From a virus (Duplodnaviria; Caudoviricetes): a DNA stretch of 64,000 nucleotides. This document shows positions 29,591-38,647 of this stretch, in pieces (position 1 is the stretch's first letter; the number at the start of each line of letters is the position of its first letter). The translations under genes were made by a program, and so were the position numbers. The DNA lies in the IMG/VR virus record IMGVR_UViG_3300027278_000003; one strand, 5' to 3'. The notes under the pieces were generated by a model that saw nothing but the letters and a program-made list of their open reading frames with translations, had not been told where the DNA came from and searched no databases.

Positions 29591-30346
29591 ATGTTAACAC
29601 TTACCCCCATAAAATTATTAATACTGCAAATTGCAGCACATCTTAGTTTCATACCTATGATAATGTACGGCGAATGGTACCATTGGGCCATCGCTTTTTT
29701 CACTTATTTTGTCACAGGCTGTTTTGGAATGACAATGACATTTCACAGACTGTTGAGCCATAAGAGTTGGAACGCACCAAAGTGGTTTGAGATTTTTGGC
29801 ACACTAGCTGGTACATATGGACTCACCGGTAGCAGTATTGGTTGGGTTGCTGTACACCGAGAACATCACCACTACACCGACCAAGAGCGAGATCCACATT
29901 CTCCAAAACATAAAGGATTTGTCAGAGTTCAATGGCTTAGTATGTTTGATACTCCGAATCCAAAATATGCAACACATTTAATGCGTGATAAGTTGCACAC
30001 ACTAACACACAAATATTATATTCATCTACATGTTGCTGTTATCATATTCTGGTCACTTATCGACCCGATGCTTCTTGTAAGTGCATATCTTGTTCCCGCC
30101 GCGATACTTTGGAATGCGGGCAGTTTCATCAATACACTAACTCATATGATTGGTTATCGCAACTTTGATACAAAGGATGATAGCACAAACATATCGTTGC
30201 TTGGTATTCTGATGTGGGGCGAAGGTTGGCACAATAACCATCACGCAAAACCAAACAGTTGTTCATTCAAAGAGCGTTGGTGGGAGTTCGACATAGGAGG
30301 ATGGTTTATTGAAAGACTCAATACTAAACCTATCGACCGCAATTAG
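29591..30346 (+). CDS. membrane fatty-acid (delta-9 type) desaturase
   Basis: His boxes HRLLSH, HREHH, HNNHH; GEGWHNNHH and WEFDIG. Confidence 0.92.
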   Translation: MLTLTPIKLLILQIAAHLSFIPMIMYGEWYHWAIAFFTYFVTGCFGMTMTFHRLLSHKSWNAPKWFEIFGTLAGTYGLTGSSIGWVAVHREHHHYTDQERDPHSPKHKGFVRVQWLSMFDTPNPKYATHLMRDKLHTLTHKYYIHLHVAVIIFWSLIDPMLLVSAYLVPAAILWNAGSFINTLTHMIGYRNFDTKDDSTNISLLGILMWGEGWHNNHHAKPNSCSFKERWWEFDIGGWFIERLNTKPIDRN

Positions 30347-31067
30347 AACACCCACGTTACCAGAAGTAAAGCGCACCCTATCTTCAATTGAGTTTGATTA
30401 TGATACCGTTGAACATTATCAAACCAACATCAAGAAATGGTTATCACCAATTATTGATCTATCAGAATTTTATGTATATCCCACAAACGGTATTACTGAA
30501 GGATTGAATTGGTGGATGGCGGCAGAAACACGTGCGATACGAATGCGCGAAGGTGACTATCAGTGGGTCCAGACGCAGGGTGGCGTTGGCGAGATATTAT
30601 ATCTGTCATGCCCAAGTTCAATTGATGGTAACTTTGTAGATATTCCAACACACGTCCCAGTTGCATTAGACTTAGCATATGTTGGTAGCACAGAAGTTCG
30701 TCATATTCCAATGACTGATAACATTGAATACGTGTTCTATAGTTTAAGTAAACCGTTCGGCGTTAGAAATATGAGAACTGGTTGGATATTCACACGCAAA
30801 GAAGACAAGAGATTGCATAATCTAACTTATAGTGCAAAGTATTATAACTACAACGCCCATCACGTGGCAGAAAAGATTATAAATAGTTACGACATTAACT
30901 ACATACATAATATGTTCAAAGGTCAGCAACAGTTAGTATGTAATGAGTTAGACTTAACCCCAAGTGACAGTGTTTGGCTGGCTACATCCATACACGAAGA
31001 TTATCAAAAATTTAGAAGAAAAGATAATGTAGCAAGACTTTGCTTATCAGGAGTATATAAATTATGA
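30309..31067 (+). CDS. PLP-dependent aminotransferase-like (fold I) protein
   Basis: VALDLAY and FYSLSKPFG..RTGW motifs. Confidence 0.7.
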   Translation: MKDSILNLSTAIRTPTLPEVKRTLSSIEFDYDTVEHYQTNIKKWLSPIIDLSEFYVYPTNGITEGLNWWMAAETRAIRMREGDYQWVQTQGGVGEILYLSCPSSIDGNFVDIPTHVPVALDLAYVGSTEVRHIPMTDNIEYVFYSLSKPFGVRNMRTGWIFTRKEDKRLHNLTYSAKYYNYNAHHVAEKIINSYDINYIHNMFKGQQQLVCNELDLTPSDSVWLATSIHEDYQKFRRKDNVARLCLSGVYKL

Positions 31068-31678
31068 GAAAAAAACATCAACTGCCAACGATTGCCAATC
31101 TGAATCTAAACATTGATTTGGAAAGACTGCAACGTGAGACAGATGCACTTGCGGCTAAATTCGTTGATGTGCGCAGTGCAAATCCAATGCTTTGCGACAA
31201 CCACATGACATTGGTAGAACAAGTATATGACAACTTCGAACAGATCAACTTGACAAAACCAAGTAAGATTCTACCTTACACTCCAGATATTAGAGAGCGT
31301 TTGCGCCGCAAAGAAGAACATCTATACAACGTACCTACAGAAGATTTTCCCGGCAGTGTATTCGAAGAAATCGTATCACAGTGTAAATCACCTGCAAGTC
31401 GTGTGCGTATCACAAAACTAGCAGCAGGAAAAGAAATCCCATTCCACATTGACTATGATGTAAGTTATGCAGTGCGTTGTATTTGTCCGATTTATTCAGA
31501 CGATCTAGTTATCAATCAATTTAAGCGCGATGGCGAGATTGAAGAATATGTTCTAGAACCCGGCAACGCATACTTCTTGAACATCGCATATCCACACGCA
31601 GTATTCAATCGCAGCGATAAACCACGTATTGCGTTGATGTTCAGTCTTGATGGACAAGAGGAACTAGCGCATCTATGA
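31064..31678 (+). CDS. aspartyl/asparaginyl beta-hydroxylase-family 2OG-Fe(II) oxygenase
   Basis: RITKLAAGKEIPFHID..PHAVFN..PRIALMF. Confidence 0.8.
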   Translation: MRKKHQLPTIANLNLNIDLERLQRETDALAAKFVDVRSANPMLCDNHMTLVEQVYDNFEQINLTKPSKILPYTPDIRERLRRKEEHLYNVPTEDFPGSVFEEIVSQCKSPASRVRITKLAAGKEIPFHIDYDVSYAVRCICPIYSDDLVINQFKRDGEIEEYVLEPGNAYFLNIAYPHAVFNRSDKPRIALMFSLDGQEELAHL

Positions 31679-32139
31679 TATCTTGGAAGTTGGGCCCAAT
31701 TGACCCATATCTAAATGAAATTAGAGAATTGTTTGCGATGAATTACGATCATCGTCATGCAAACAACTATATAAAGTGGCCTTTGTTCGAAGAAACGAAG
31801 TTTGCACGTATGGGTTGGGACAACTTCCTAGTATATTATAGCGCAGGTATTGCTAGAGAAGGATACGGAGAAAATAGTATTCGTATCATGAGTAGACATA
31901 CCAGAGACAGAGAATATGACTTTGGCGGATACAAAGCAGATTTGCGCAGAGGATTAGATACACTTGATCAAAGTACGGACTATGCACTAAATCTAGGCTA
32001 TACAGACATATGGCTGAGTCGTGAAGAAACACCGGAACTGTTTAGATACTTTGCTAAAAATTCAGATTACAACTGGGAAGTAACATACGAACCACTACCA
32101 GACAATGGTATGCAGCAATGGGTAATGAGAAAATATTAA
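31675..32139 (+). CDS. hypothetical protein, possible GNAT fold
   Basis: 154 aa, coupled. Confidence 0.45.
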   Translation: MISWKLGPIDPYLNEIRELFAMNYDHRHANNYIKWPLFEETKFARMGWDNFLVYYSAGIAREGYGENSIRIMSRHTRDREYDFGGYKADLRRGLDTLDQSTDYALNLGYTDIWLSREETPELFRYFAKNSDYNWEVTYEPLPDNGMQQWVMRKY

Positions 32140-37384: not shown

Positions 37385-37650
37385 ACATATGGAGTTTTGA
37401 AACATATGTCGCAGACAGTCCAATACACGGTAAAGGTAGATACACATATGAACCTATACGTCTGGGAGAAACTGTACTACGTATCGACGGAAACATTCAC
37501 AAGAATGAAAACCAAAGTTATGTAAATCATAGTATCGATAACAATTTAGACTACGTAGGTAGTAATACCTGGGTAGCAAGCAGGGATATCGATCCAAATG
37601 AAGAACTAACAATGAATTATTTGCAATGGATAAAGGAGTTGCCATTTTGA
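37381..37650 (+). CDS. minimal SET-domain protein
   Basis: SPIHGKG, YVNHS, RDIDPNEELTMNY. Confidence 0.85.
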   Translation: MNIWSFETYVADSPIHGKGRYTYEPIRLGETVLRIDGNIHKNENQSYVNHSIDNNLDYVGSNTWVASRDIDPNEELTMNYLQWIKELPF

Positions 37651-38153
37651 AAATAGCATTAACGGGTGATAGTTCGGGATTTGGTCCGTACGTAAGAGAC
37701 ACACTTGAAAATCTAGGACACGAAGTGATCGGATTGAGTAGATCAAAAGGATATGATCTGTCAACTACTATTGGTAGAGAACTTGCCATCTATGCAACAG
37801 AAGATTGCGATGTTTTTATTAATAATAGTTCTGCTGGTGGGTGGCAACCACACATGCTTGAAGATTGGTTGTTGGCATATTACAATCAAAACAAAACTAT
37901 TATCAACATAAGCAGCAATCTTGCACTGGTGAACGAACCCGCGGCAGAACATGTAGCGGAATGGCTTTGTAAAAATAAATTGAATGATGTGCATCGCAAA
38001 TTCATAAATGGTAGTGATTACCATGTAAAATGCCAGTCTAAAATACTCAGTTGGGGTTATTGGAATAATCATCCAATTGCAAAAGATCACCCAGAGGTGA
38101 TAACGAAAATGACAATTAAGGAAGCGATACAAGATATCGTTGATTTACTATGA
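37647..38153 (+). CDS. short SDR-like oxidoreductase
   Basis: IALTGDSSGFG, DVFINNS, IINISS. Confidence 0.7.
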   Translation: MKIALTGDSSGFGPYVRDTLENLGHEVIGLSRSKGYDLSTTIGRELAIYATEDCDVFINNSSAGGWQPHMLEDWLLAYYNQNKTIINISSNLALVNEPAAEHVAEWLCKNKLNDVHRKFINGSDYHVKCQSKILSWGYWNNHPIAKDHPEVITKMTIKEAIQDIVDLL

Positions 38154-38647
38154 AATACGCTATAACTGGTCACACATACGGTATTGGTGAAGGGCTTTAT
38201 AAACGTCTTTCACCAAATGCAATTGGTTTCAGCAAAAGCACCGGATATGACATAACCAAAAAAGAAATTAGAAAGAAAATAATTGAAGAAGTACACGATT
38301 GTGATGTATTCATCAACAATGCGCCTGCTGGATTTGGGCAGAGTGAACTGTGTTTAGAACTTTGGCAAGCGTGGAAACATACAAACAAAACAATTATAAA
38401 CGTTGGTAGTCGAATTGCTGAAGGTGACATAGTATATCAATATCCAGGCGTGATGATTGAATATGGTATGCACAAAAAGACACTAAAAACTCTCACCGAA
38501 GATTTGCAAAAGATAGACGCACCAATCAATGTTGTGTATCGTTGGTTTGCATATGTTGGAACTCCTAAAATACTAAGCAAGTATCCTGACTTCACTACGG
38601 ACGACTACATCACAATTGACGAGGCGGTGGATATAATACTATCTTGA
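38150..38647 (+). CDS. short SDR-like oxidoreductase
   Basis: AITGHTYGIG, DVFINNA, YGMHK. Confidence 0.75.
   Translation: MKYAITGHTYGIGEGLYKRLSPNAIGFSKSTGYDITKKEIRKKIIEEVHDCDVFINNAPAGFGQSELCLELWQAWKHTNKTIINVGSRIAEGDIVYQYPGVMIEYGMHKKTLKTLTEDLQKIDAPINVVYRWFAYVGTPKILSKYPDFTTDDYITIDEAVDIILS

What the first reader, a model, noticed from the sequence alone, without database searches (positions are those of the whole stretch)
29591..38647. 9-kb phage biosynthetic-type island: desaturase, PLP enzyme, B12 radical SAM, about six oxygenases, sulfotransferase, SET and SDRs
Seen: one promoter (29541) followed by 14 tightly coupled genes, nearly all predicted tailoring enzymes. Established: delta-9 desaturases act on acyl chains; the Asp/Asn beta-hydroxylase family includes the lipid hydroxylases LpxO and OlsC; cobalamin radical SAM enzymes often methylate unactivated carbons; sulfotransferases need PAPS, and an APS-kinase-like gene lies at 62854. 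Inference: a pathway making or remodelling an acylated, hydroxylated, methylated and sulfated molecule, such as a host envelope lipid, a virion surface decoration or a modified base. Oxygenase expansions are known in marine phages, but I cannot match this full combination to a described pathway.
Basis: partly seen in the sequence, partly recalled or inferred. Interest (0 to 1): 0.7.

Follow-up and report, generated by a model that had tools for sequence, protein, structure and literature searches.

The report
Jumbo-phage desaturase-centred tailoring-enzyme operon
An uncultured marine giant phage carries a real, tightly packed operon of about 16 modifying enzymes. Its core (a membrane fatty-acid desaturase, a shortened vitamin-B6 enzyme, an iron hydroxylase and an acyl-transfer protein) recurs in many uncultured marine phages and partly in one cultured Pelagibacter phage. 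It probably edits one host-supplied molecule, most likely a membrane lipid, but the product is unknown.

Summary
A sigma-70-like promoter match at 29541 is followed by 16 (not 14) co-oriented, overlapping genes, 29591-39651.

Supported identities:
- a delta-9-type desaturase
- a truncated HisC/CobD-like PLP enzyme
- three AspH-like cupins, all with the metal triad
- a P4H-like 2OG oxygenase, also with the triad
- a KedN5-related B12 radical SAM enzyme
- an Stf0-like sulfotransferase (fold plus PAPS and His motifs)
- a minimal SET protein
- two short SDRs
- an alpha/beta hydrolase

Two of the "oxygenases" (g07, g11) rest on an HxD..H motif only.

The content does not shuffle at random. Among 78 non-identical phage contig groups, 8 carry the same eight families and 3 (plus one cut) carry all twelve in the window's order. 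Loci fished with the GNAT alone have the desaturase just upstream in 21 of 24 groups. The close PLP family is nearly absent from cellular genomes.

The best reading is a phage-specific tailoring module for one host-supplied scaffold, probably an amino-bearing acyl lipid. This is an inference; no product is shown.

Related islands are annotated in Pelagibacter phage Mosig, discussed in the literature, and were noted earlier by this scan on other DNA.

The parts
29541..29570 (+). sigma-70-like promoter match (TTGACA, 18-nt spacer, TG-extended TACTAT), 10 nt after tRNA-His
   Evidence: a consensus match only
29591..30346 (+). g01, membrane fatty-acid desaturase of the delta-9 (DesC/DesA/SCD) type; His boxes HRLLSH, HREHHH, HNNHH
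   Evidence: Pfam PF00487 E 1.9e-16, 61 bits. NCBIfam DesA family 2e-30, below its cut-off. Sequence.
30309..31067 (+). g02, truncated (252 aa) HisC/CobD-like fold-type-I PLP enzyme; invariant Schiff-base Lys148
   Evidence: The protein itself is sub-threshold. Its family of 756 representative clusters is clear: 67 of 120 members hit PF00155, best 7e-11. The family profile hits HisC 1h1c at 7e-10 and CobD at 1.4e-5.
31064..31678 (+). g03, AspH/LpxO-family Fe(II)/2OG hydroxylase; triad HxD...H
   Evidence: Pfam PF05118 E 1.3e-6, above cut-off; alignment A4
31675..32139 (+). g04, GNAT-fold acyltransferase-like protein of an abundant, Pfam-less marine phage family
   Evidence: AF2 model pLDDT 93. 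Foldseek gives 233 PDB hits at E<=1e-3; the rows shown are almost all GNAT-type acyl/acetyltransferases. Nearly all VIA rows are GNAT-fold entries, Z 9.8-11.9. 254 homologues found.
32118..33707 (+). g05, B12-binding (class B) radical SAM enzyme, KedN5-related putative C-methyltransferase; CPYSCAFC cluster motif
   Evidence: Pfam Radical_SAM 1.1e-10; B12-binding 0.0032. NCBIfam KedN5 subfamily 6e-48, below cut-off.
33717..34244 (+). g06, AspH-like cupin paralogue; HxD...H
   Evidence: Held-out iterated profile E 8.7e-11; hhalign to the g03 family 2e-4; A4
34241..35002 (+). g07, unknown; candidate cupin oxygenase by HRD...H motif only
   Evidence: Aligned in A4, but not recovered by the held-out profile. 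No PDB or phage match.
34999..35616 (+). g08, Stf0-like sulfotransferase; invariant 5'-PSB loop (PRSGTS), Lys66/His68, Arg91...Ser100
   Evidence: AF2 pLDDT 95. VIA best match is 1tex Stf0 at Z 10.6, followed by about 20 sulfotransferases over the full length. Foldseek's top rows are all sulfotransferases. Invariant columns. Atlas neighbours carry PF09037 in 12-15% of members.
35597..36214 (+). g09, P4H-like 2OG-Fe(II) oxygenase (HxE...H...R); likely start ATG 35609
   Evidence: 8 of 16 family members hit PF13640, best 8e-8. The profile hits P4H structures at E 0.09. Invariant columns.
36211..36771 (+). g10, AspH-like cupin paralogue; HxD...H
   Evidence: Held-out profile E 8.6e-9; hhalign to the g03 family 2.5e-4
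36710..37384 (+). g11, Pfam-less phage family with invariant H95xD97...H183...R194; candidate oxygenase
   Evidence: 99 homologues, none with a Pfam domain. Invariant columns. No significant profile link to the AspH or P4H sets.
37381..37650 (+). g12, minimal (89 aa) SET-domain methyltransferase; GxG, NHS, ELTxxY conserved
   Evidence: Pfam PF00856 E 6.5e-7, above cut-off; A13
37626..38153 (+). g13, short SDR-like Rossmann protein; TGxxxGxG and NNxxG kept, catalytic Tyr replaced by Glu
   Evidence: A12; the family profile hits 238 SDR structures, best 8.5e-13
38150..38647 (+). g14, short SDR; TGxxxGxG, NNAxxG, Ser, YxxxK kept
38672..38986 (+). g15, small protein with one predicted membrane helix; same transcription unit by position
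   Evidence: Sequence; no family found
38983..39651 (+). g16, alpha/beta hydrolase (esterase/lipase-type GHSLGG); overlaps g15 by 4 nt
   Evidence: Pfam Abhydrolase_1 8.5e-6; PHROG esterase/lipase 0.0013
62854..63273 (+). APS-kinase-like P-loop kinase, a possible PAPS supply for g08; it lies 23 kb away
   Evidence: Pfam PF01583 4.4e-8, above cut-off, N-terminal 83 aa only. A 55% homologue lies between the desaturase and the sulfotransferase in L016.

Best explanation
The island is one early-type operon of a 342-kb-class marine jumbo myophage. It encodes a phage-specific tailoring module.

Its conserved heart has four parts: a membrane delta-9-type acyl desaturase, a shortened HisC/CobD-like PLP enzyme, an AspH/LpxO-family hydroxylase and a GNAT-fold acyltransferase. 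In this lineage a shell of further enzymes surrounds it:
- a B12 radical SAM C-methylase
- further hydroxylases
- an Stf0-like sulfotransferase
- a SET methyltransferase
- two short SDRs
- an esterase/lipase-type hydrolase

The island has no scaffold-building enzyme, so the enzymes must act on something the host supplies. The most likely target is an acyl lipid carrying an amino or amino-acid head group. On that reading, the lipid in the infected cell's membrane is N-acylated or acetylated, desaturated, hydroxylated, C- or N-methylated, and O-sulfated on the new hydroxyls.

Shown here: the gene identities, the operon layout, the co-inheritance of the set, and its near-restriction to phages. 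Inferred: that the genes share one substrate, and that this substrate is a lipid.
For: Layout: 16 overlapping, co-oriented genes lie behind one promoter-like site.

Co-inheritance:
- In loci fished with the GNAT (g04) alone, the desaturase lies upstream on the same strand within 4 genes in 21 of 24 distinct groups.
- 8 of 78 distinct contig groups hold all eight families des/PLP/AspH/GNAT/rSAM/SDR/g11/g09, and 14 hold at least six.
- 3 groups, plus one cut by a contig end, hold all twelve families in the window's order at 50-83% amino-acid identity.
- Of 67 desaturase-bearing groups, 57 carry an AspH-like gene and 38 a GNAT.
- Sulfotransferases of two different families (g08 and c77) recur inside the module. 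In L016 an APS-kinase-like gene lies between the desaturase and the sulfotransferase.

Lipid leaning:
- The anchor gene is a four-helix membrane desaturase with three His boxes.
- AspH-family members LpxO and OlsC hydroxylate lipid acyl chains (established knowledge).
- The SDR family profile's many PDB hits include numerous FabG-type 3-oxoacyl-ACP reductases.
- g04 matches the acyl-ACP-using GNAT-fold enzymes LasI (Z 11.0) and FeeM (Z 10.3) about as well as it matches acetyltransferases.
- The operon ends with a GxSxG esterase/lipase-type hydrolase.

Phage specificity: the close PLP family (A1) was found once in 185,579 species genomes, on a short phage-like contig.

Integrity: there is no indel over 7.3 kb among ~97%-identical populations from other studies.
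Against: - No product, substrate or expression datum exists.
- SET and P4H-like enzymes are typically protein modifiers.
- HisC/CobD-like PLP enzymes act on soluble phosphorylated amino compounds, not on lipids.
- None of the AspH-like proteins has a membrane segment or matches an LpxO model.
- The GNAT's nearest structures are mostly acetyltransferases, and Z values within about 1.5 cannot separate acyl from acetyl donors.
- No OlsB-, OlsA- or SPT-type lipid-building enzyme is present.
- Outside the core, content and order vary a lot between lineages. Part of the island may therefore be independent cargo.
- The co-occurrence counts come from loci fished with island genes, so they are biased upward.
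Confidence: 0.4

Rival explanations
1. A protein-modification suite. The hydroxylases (AspH-like, P4H-like), the sulfotransferase, the SET lysine methyltransferase, the GNAT acetyltransferase and the B12 radical SAM C-methylase decorate virion proteins (tail fibre, collagen-like) or host proteins. This follows the model proposed for bacterial beta-hydroxylase/sulfotransferase/PAPS-synthetase/acetyltransferase operons: hydroxylation, then sulfation of the new hydroxyl.
For: Iyer et al. 2010 (PMC2938197) describe such neighbourhoods and predict tail-collar or collagen-like proteins as substrates. SET and P4H-type enzymes are classic protein modifiers. In the cultured Pelagibacter phage Mosig the related island abuts tail-fibre genes. 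In pelagimyophages such genes lie in the 'host recognition cluster' (PMC7029224). In L011-type loci the island abuts a tail-tube-like gene and the terminase.
Against: The most conserved genes (membrane desaturase, PLP enzyme, SDR) have no known protein substrates. No collagen-like (G-X-Y) ORF occurs in the window or in loci L001-L055. In this window the island lies among tRNA, nucleotide-metabolism and early-type genes behind a sigma-70-like promoter, not in the structural module.
Confidence: 0.2
2. No common product. The island is a hot spot where independent accessory enzymes accumulate: the known viral desaturase for membrane fluidity, 2OG oxygenases, radical SAM cassettes and others. Each has its own target.
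For: Outside the four-gene core, order and content differ widely among relatives. Other lineages swap in TauD, SAM methyltransferase, FMN reductase and other radical SAM genes. Hypervariable islands with radical SAM cassettes and 2OG oxygenases are described in cyano- and pelagimyophages (PMC7029224, PMC3037559).
Against: The same eight families recur together in 8 distinct groups, and twelve in identical order in 3-4 groups at only 50-83% amino-acid identity. The tight translational coupling also argues for co-function. So does the recurrence of two unrelated sulfotransferase families at the same place.
Confidence: 0.25
3. A soluble, amino-acid-derived secondary metabolite or cofactor-like molecule (not a lipid, not a protein) is tailored. 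It would serve, for example, as a signalling or anti-competitor compound made during infection.
For: The combination of PLP enzyme, GNAT, B12 radical SAM related to KedN5 (an NCBIfam-named C-methyltransferase family), hydroxylases, sulfotransferase and SDR is typical of natural-product tailoring. AMP-binding enzymes and an isochorismatase lie in a second cluster 5-13 kb upstream.
Against: No NRPS, PKS, ATP-grasp, precursor peptide or exporter is present in the island. The membrane desaturase anchor does not fit a soluble substrate.
Confidence: 0.12

Closest known systems
Accessory island of Pelagibacter phage Mosig EXVC030M (MT647606.1, about 54.5-61 kb) and the 'host recognition cluster' of pelagimyophages (Zaragoza-Solas et al. 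2020, PMC7029224)
   Same: Mosig encodes, in order: AspH-like, FA desaturase, 'putative aminotransferase' (45% identical to g02), FMN reductase, TauD, methylase, GNAT, AspH-like. All are on one strand. AspH is reported as core to pelagimyophages, and radical SAM cassettes as variable.
   Different: Mosig is a 141-kb T4-like phage and its island abuts tail-fibre genes. It lacks the g04-type GNAT. Over the 12.6-kb stretch examined, none of the B12 radical SAM, g08 sulfotransferase, SET, g09, g11 or short SDR families was seen. No function has been tested there either.
Cyanophage-encoded delta-9 lipid desaturase vFAD (Roitman et al. 2018, PMC5776448)
   Same: A small viral membrane desaturase with the three His boxes of DesC-type delta-9 acyl-lipid desaturases.
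   Different: In the passages read, vFAD is treated as a stand-alone auxiliary gene. A word search of that paper found no mention of neighbouring, adjacent or hydroxylase genes. Here the desaturase is the first gene of a conserved multi-enzyme cassette. tblastn of g01 against 50,697 GenBank phage records matched only three, none of them a cyanophage.
Tandem dioxygenase arrays of cyanophage Syn9, and bacterial beta-hydroxylase + sulfotransferase + PAPS-synthetase + acetyltransferase neighbourhoods (Iyer, Abhiman, de Souza, Aravind 2010, PMC2938197)
   Same: Several unrelated 2OG/cupin oxygenases sit in tandem. A beta-hydroxylase family is combined with a sulfotransferase, an acetyltransferase and a PAPS-supply gene. 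The proposed logic is hydroxylation followed by sulfation.
   Different: Those operons co-encode tail-collar or collagen-like substrate proteins, and none is found here. They are not described with a desaturase, PLP enzyme, SET, SDR or B12 radical SAM.
Ornithine-lipid / lipid A tailoring enzymes OlsC and LpxO (AspH family), with OlsB-type N-acyltransferases (own knowledge, not tested against reference sequences here)
   Same: The enzyme classes match: an AspH-family hydroxylase together with an N-acyltransferase-fold protein, acting on a membrane aminolipid.
   Different: No sequence-level match to an LpxO or OlsB model was obtained. There is no OlsA-type O-acyltransferase. Membership is not claimed; this is only a model for how the core could work.

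Membership tests
Membrane fatty-acid desaturase (PF00487), delta-9 type | Pfam score above the gathering threshold | tested here: met
   61 bits against a 29.7 cut-off
Membrane fatty-acid desaturase (PF00487), delta-9 type | Three His boxes (HxxxxH, HxxHH, HxxHH) for the di-iron site | tested here: met
   HRLLSH, HREHHH and HNNHH are in the sequence
Membrane fatty-acid desaturase (PF00487), delta-9 type | Delta-9 regiospecificity and an acyl-lipid rather than acyl-CoA substrate | not testable with these tools
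   The best NCBIfam model is the DesA family at 2e-30, but 106 bits is below the 400 cut-off
Class I/II aminotransferase fold (PF00155) | Sequence membership | tested here: inconclusive
   The protein itself scores E 0.12, below cut-off. In its family, 67 of 120 members hit PF00155 (best 7e-11), and the family profile hits HisC at 7e-10.
Class I/II aminotransferase fold (PF00155) | PLP-binding Lys in an SxSK motif, plus Asp (DxAY), Asn and Arg | tested here: met
   K148 is invariant in 120 sequences. D121, S147, R156 and R243 are at least 90% conserved.
Class I/II aminotransferase fold (PF00155) | Full two-domain length of about 335-400 aa | tested here: not met
   252 aa; the family is typically 250-310 aa. 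It is therefore a truncated relative, not a canonical member.
AspH/LpxO family (PF05118) | Pfam threshold and the HxD...H metal triad | tested here: met
   g03 scores 28.8 bits against 22.6. g06 and g10 score 8.7e-11 and 8.6e-9 with a held-out profile. The triad is invariant in A4. g07 was not recovered.
Class B (cobalamin) radical SAM methyltransferase | CxxxCxxC cluster and radical SAM core | tested here: met
   CPYSCAFC; Pfam 42.4 bits against 29.5
Class B (cobalamin) radical SAM methyltransferase | N-terminal B12-binding domain | tested here: inconclusive
   PF02310 E 0.0032, 17.7 bits against a 32.1 cut-off. The matches to B12 radical SAM NCBIfam models span the region.
KedN5 subfamily (NF033712) | Score above the curated cut-off | tested here: not met
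   163 bits against 700: a relative, not a member
PAPS-dependent sulfotransferase | Sulfotransferase fold over the whole protein | tested here: met
   VIA best match is Stf0 1tex at Z 10.6 with 164 aa aligned. About 20 sulfotransferases score Z 8-10 over residues 1-205, while kinases align over only ~130 aa. Foldseek's top rows are all sulfotransferases, but E is only ~1e-3.
PAPS-dependent sulfotransferase | 5'-PSB loop, catalytic His, 3'-PB Arg...Ser with canonical spacing | tested here: met
   P8, G11, K66, H68, R91 and S100 are invariant in 36 sequences. The spacing was compared with SULT1E1 from memory.
PAPS-dependent sulfotransferase | Pfam or PDB sequence match | tested here: inconclusive
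   No Pfam or PDB sequence hit. Atlas neighbours carry PF09037 in 12-15% of members.
SET domain (PF00856) | Pfam threshold; GxG, NHS and ELxxxY motifs | tested here: met
   30.2 bits against 22.4. G17, R20, N49, H50, E75, L76, T77 and Y80 are invariant.
Short-chain dehydrogenase/reductase | TGxxxGxG, NNAG, Ser-Tyr-Lys | tested here: met
   g14 keeps all of them; g13 has Glu in place of Tyr. The family profile hits 238 SDR structures, best 8.5e-13. Both proteins are about 80 aa shorter than typical SDRs.
GNAT acyltransferase | GNAT fold | tested here: met
   pLDDT 93. Foldseek finds 233 hits at E<=1e-3. Nearly all VIA rows are GNAT-fold entries, Z 9.8-11.9.
GNAT acyltransferase | Motif A (Q/R-x-x-G-x-G/A) for CoA binding | tested here: inconclusive
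   No canonical motif between beta4 and alpha3. The conserved R74 H75 R77 ... F83 G84 differ from it. hhalign to the Pfam-detectable phage GNAT family c2 is not significant.
Beta-hydroxylase / sulfotransferase / PAPS-synthetase operons with protein substrates (Iyer et al. 2010) | Co-encoded collagen-like or tail-collar substrate protein | tested here: not met
   No (G-X-Y)x6 ORF in the window or in L001-L055. No structural gene was found among the window genes scanned.
Ornithine-lipid pathway (OlsB/OlsA/OlsC) | OlsB- and OlsA-type acyltransferases | tested here: inconclusive
   No NCBIfam hit for g04. There was no direct comparison with OlsB or OlsA sequences.

The most novel reading that the evidence does not exclude
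Marine giant phages encode their own pathway for a virus-specific membrane lipid: an unsaturated, hydroxylated, methylated and sulfated N-acyl aminolipid made only in infected bacteria. This would be a bacterial-virus counterpart of the viral sphingolipids of coccolithoviruses. It would be built on a phage-only four-gene cassette: desaturase, mini-PLP enzyme, AspH-like hydroxylase, GNAT.
Probability: 0.25. Interest if true: 0.8.

Novelty: new variant of a known kind. Interest (0 to 1): 0.5.

Why it matters
Tailoring-enzyme islands with a desaturase and many oxygenases are common in abundant marine phages, yet none has a known product. This window gives a clean, intact example and defines what is constant:
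- a phage-specific desaturase/PLP/AspH/GNAT cassette
- an eight-family extended set
- recurrent sulfation genes

It also assigns folds to two Pfam-less families, the g04 GNAT and the g08 sulfotransferase. That turns 'many odd enzymes' into a small set of genes that can be expressed together and assayed.

If the product is a virus-made lipid or a protein decoration, it would bear on how ocean phages remodel host envelopes or their own particles. The idea itself is not new. Comparable islands are annotated in Pelagibacter phage Mosig and were discussed by Iyer et al. 2010 and Zaragoza-Solas et al. 2020. This scan also noted them earlier on other genomes.

Tried and rejected
- DNA search: megablast of the island against 50,697 phage records gave no match.
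- Whole genome: none is held for this window.
- g04 against the Pfam-detectable phage GNAT family c2: hhalign not significant.
- g04 and g08 profiles against PDB sequences: nothing.
- g11: no significant link to the AspH set, the P4H-like set or any solved structure. A lectin hit at 3e-4 is a repeated short-motif artefact with no single significant stretch. No homologue carries a Pfam domain.
- g07: my first iterated search pulled it into the AspH family at E 1e-24. A held-out repeat did not recover it, nor did hhalign, PDB or the phage records. I therefore withdrew that assignment.
- AspH paralogue profile against PDB sequences: nothing significant.
The narrower alignment gave a single phage-like contig.
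- RNA evidence: no RNA holder was listed among the sequencing runs, so expression could not be examined.
- RiPP idea: no precursor-like small ORF, protease or exporter is in the island.
- Modified-base idea: no nucleotide- or DNA-acting family is in the island. The PHROG label 'DNA endonuclease V' on g09's family conflicts with the 2OG-FeII_Oxy_3 hits of its relatives and was set aside.

Full report
**Context.** The window belongs to a large uncultured marine phage.
- It encodes 15 tRNAs.
- It has class I ribonucleotide reductase and a clamp-loader subunit 55% identical to that of Pseudomonas jumbo phage PA5oct.
- It also carries many metabolic genes: ornithine decarboxylase, a PutA-like protein, AMP-binding enzymes and three radical SAM enzymes.
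- No whole genome is held. Earlier notes of this scan call it a 342-kb phage with alphaproteobacterial-type promoters; I did not test that.

**Observation.** Fourteen + strand ORFs fill 29591-38647, with 4- to 62-nt overlaps or a 9-nt gap. Two more follow in register: a small membrane protein at 38672-38986 and an alpha/beta hydrolase with GHSLGG at 38983-39651. A TTGACA-18-TGnTACTAT match lies at 29541-29570, directly after tRNA-His. The next strong match is at 39648. Contigs from runs of three other studies cover the island collinearly at about 97% identity. One of them spans 7,282 nt with 204 substitutions and no indel. The island is therefore real and intact.

**Gene identities.**
- **g01** is a membrane desaturase: Pfam 1.9e-16, with His boxes HRLLSH, HREHHH and HNNHH.
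- **g02** gave only sub-threshold aminotransferase hits on its own. Its family is large, with 756 representative clusters. Of 120 members, 67 hit PF00155. The family profile hits histidinol-phosphate aminotransferase at 7e-10 and CobD at 1.4e-5. The Schiff-base Lys is invariant. At 250-310 aa, this is a shortened PLP enzyme.
- **g03** passes the AspH Pfam threshold.
- **g06 and g10**, together with two further window ORFs (19977-20531 + and 21227-21742 -), are recovered by an AspH-seeded profile built without them or their relatives, at E 1e-7 to 1e-11. They share the invariant HxD...P...H.
- **g07** is not recovered. My earlier inclusion of it came from self-reinforcement in the iteration.
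- **g09** has HxE...H...R, and half of its relatives hit the P4H-type PF13640.
- **g11** has invariant HxD...H...R but no detectable family.
- **g05** is a B12-type radical SAM enzyme related to, but outside, the KedN5 C-methyltransferase subfamily.
- **g12** is a minimal SET protein with all signature motifs.
- **g13 and g14** are short SDRs; g13 lacks the catalytic Tyr.

**Two structure predictions.**
- **g04** belongs to an abundant, Pfam-less marine family with 254 homologues at 55-69% identity. It folds with pLDDT 93 into the GNAT topology. Foldseek gives 233 PDB hits at E<=1e-3, and the listed rows are almost all GNAT-type acyl/acetyltransferases. Nearly all VIA rows are GNAT-fold entries at Z 9.8-11.9. 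These include acetyltransferases as well as the acyl-ACP users LasI and FeeM, so the acyl donor cannot be told.
- **g08** folds with pLDDT 95. Its best structural match is the Stf0 sulfotransferase (Z 10.6), followed by about twenty other sulfotransferases over the full length. P-loop kinases match only about 130 residues. The PAPS 5'-phosphosulfate loop, a Lys/His pair and the Arg...Ser 3'-phosphate motif are invariant in 36 sequences.

**Synteny.** I fetched 120 IMG/VR loci, baiting with g05, g01, g04, g08 and g11. One further locus came from a genome scan with the g02 family. I called ORFs and clustered them. After merging loci that share identical proteins, 78 distinct groups remain.
- Eight groups carry all of desaturase, PLP enzyme, AspH, g04-GNAT, B12 radical SAM, SDR, g11 and g09.
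- Fourteen groups carry at least six of those families.
- Three groups carry all twelve families (adding g06, g08, g10 and SET) in the window's order, at 50-83% amino-acid identity. They are the window, IMGVR 3300021962_000170 with its near-twin, and 3300009441_000074. A fourth, 3300037285_000249, is cut by its contig end.
- In loci fished with g04 alone, the desaturase lies upstream on the same strand within four genes in 21 of 24 groups. The usual arrangements are des-PLP-AspH-GNAT or des-GNAT-SDR.
- Of 67 desaturase-bearing groups, 57 have an AspH-like gene and 38 a GNAT (g04 or c2 type).
- A second, Pfam-detectable sulfotransferase family (c77) occupies the slot between AspH and g04 in the shorter islands.
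- In L016 a 55% homologue of the window's APS-kinase-like gene lies between the desaturase and the sulfotransferase.
- Outside these blocks the content changes. Other lineages carry TauD, a SAM methyltransferase, an FMN reductase and other radical SAM genes.

These counts are biased by the baits, and many loci are cut by contig ends.

**Distribution.**
- The close g02 family was found once in 185,579 species genomes. That hit is a 6.9-kb contig of a Phycisphaerales MAG with the phage-type context, probably mis-binned.
- Among 50,697 GenBank phage records, only Pelagibacter phage Mosig has a g02 homologue (45% identity). It lies next to a desaturase, an AspH-like gene, TauD, a methylase, a GNAT and a second AspH-like gene, followed by tail-fibre genes.
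- g04 and g07 have no match in those records.

**Interpretation.** The island has no scaffold-building enzyme, so the enzymes must act on something the host supplies.
- The constant partners are a membrane acyl desaturase, a small-molecule PLP enzyme, an AspH-family hydroxylase and an acyltransferase-fold protein, with an SDR often present. The AspH family includes the lipid hydroxylases LpxO and OlsC (own knowledge).
- This fits an amino-bearing acyl lipid best. Sulfation of newly made hydroxyls is a recurrent extra step. I give this reading 0.4.
- The SET and P4H-like genes fit a protein target better. Iyer et al. 2010 proposed hydroxylation followed by sulfation of tail-collar or collagen-like proteins for bacterial operons with a similar enzyme mix. 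No such substrate gene is present here, and the island is not in a structural module in this phage.
- A mosaic of independent genes and a soluble metabolite remain possible.
- Nothing supports a modified base.

**Novelty.** The kind is known but unsolved:
- the viral delta-9 desaturase (PMC5776448);
- AspH as a core pelagimyophage gene, with variable radical SAM cassettes (PMC7029224);
- multiple 2OG oxygenase genes in cyanophage genomes (PMC3037559) and their tandem arrays (PMC2938197).

This scan also reported comparable islands on other genomes. New here are the defined phage-specific core, the fold assignments for g04 and g08, and this particular combination with SET, B12 radical SAM and a sulfotransferase.

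Noticed in passing
window 16159-24530: A second tailoring cluster lies upstream of the tRNA array. It holds an AMP-binding enzyme (16159-17562), a SAM methyltransferase (17552-18157), a B12 radical SAM paralogue of g05 (18154-20013), AspH-like cupins at 19977-20531 (+) and 21227-21742 (-), an AMP-binding fragment (21729-22430, -), an isochorismatase (22695-23345, -) and an SDR-like gene (23281-24024, -). Ornithine decarboxylase follows at 24613-25740.
   Followed up: partly
window 62854-63676; L059 4369-5188; L016 10720-11049: An APS-kinase-like P-loop protein is followed by a 136-aa nucleotidyltransferase with GRWQPWHDGH and ISATKIR motifs (NMNAT / ATP-sulfurylase superfamily). The pair recurs in L059 a few genes upstream of the cassette. 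In L016 the kinase alone lies between the desaturase and the sulfotransferase. It could be a phage PAPS supply or an NAD-salvage pair.
   Followed up: partly
L011:11401-11949 and relatives (family c77): A second sulfotransferase family, unrelated to g08 at BLAST level and detectable by Pfam (PF00685, E 1e-4), sits between AspH and the g04 GNAT in the shorter versions of the island.
   Followed up: partly
L087 (JBIKJV010000344.1, 6.9 kb): A contig binned into a Phycisphaerales MAG carries the phage-type cassette des-PLP-AspH-GNAT with phage backbone genes upstream. It is probably a mis-binned phage contig.
   Followed up: partly
window 43756-46608: A 950-aa PutA-like protein (proline dehydrogenase / P5C dehydrogenase), 37% identical to putA in records labelled Acinetobacter phage MD-2021a. 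This is an unusual metabolic gene for a phage.
   Followed up: no
window 47712-49076: A SPASM-type radical SAM enzyme. It belongs to a family (c1, 25 copies) that recurs in the related phage islands.
   Followed up: no
window 27745-27819: A tRNA with anticodon CTA (amber suppressor) lies in the tRNA array just upstream. The island's ORFs are all open under the standard code.
   Followed up: no
window 56977-58581: A 534-aa protein with a peptidoglycan-binding domain and FG-GAP repeats.
   Followed up: no
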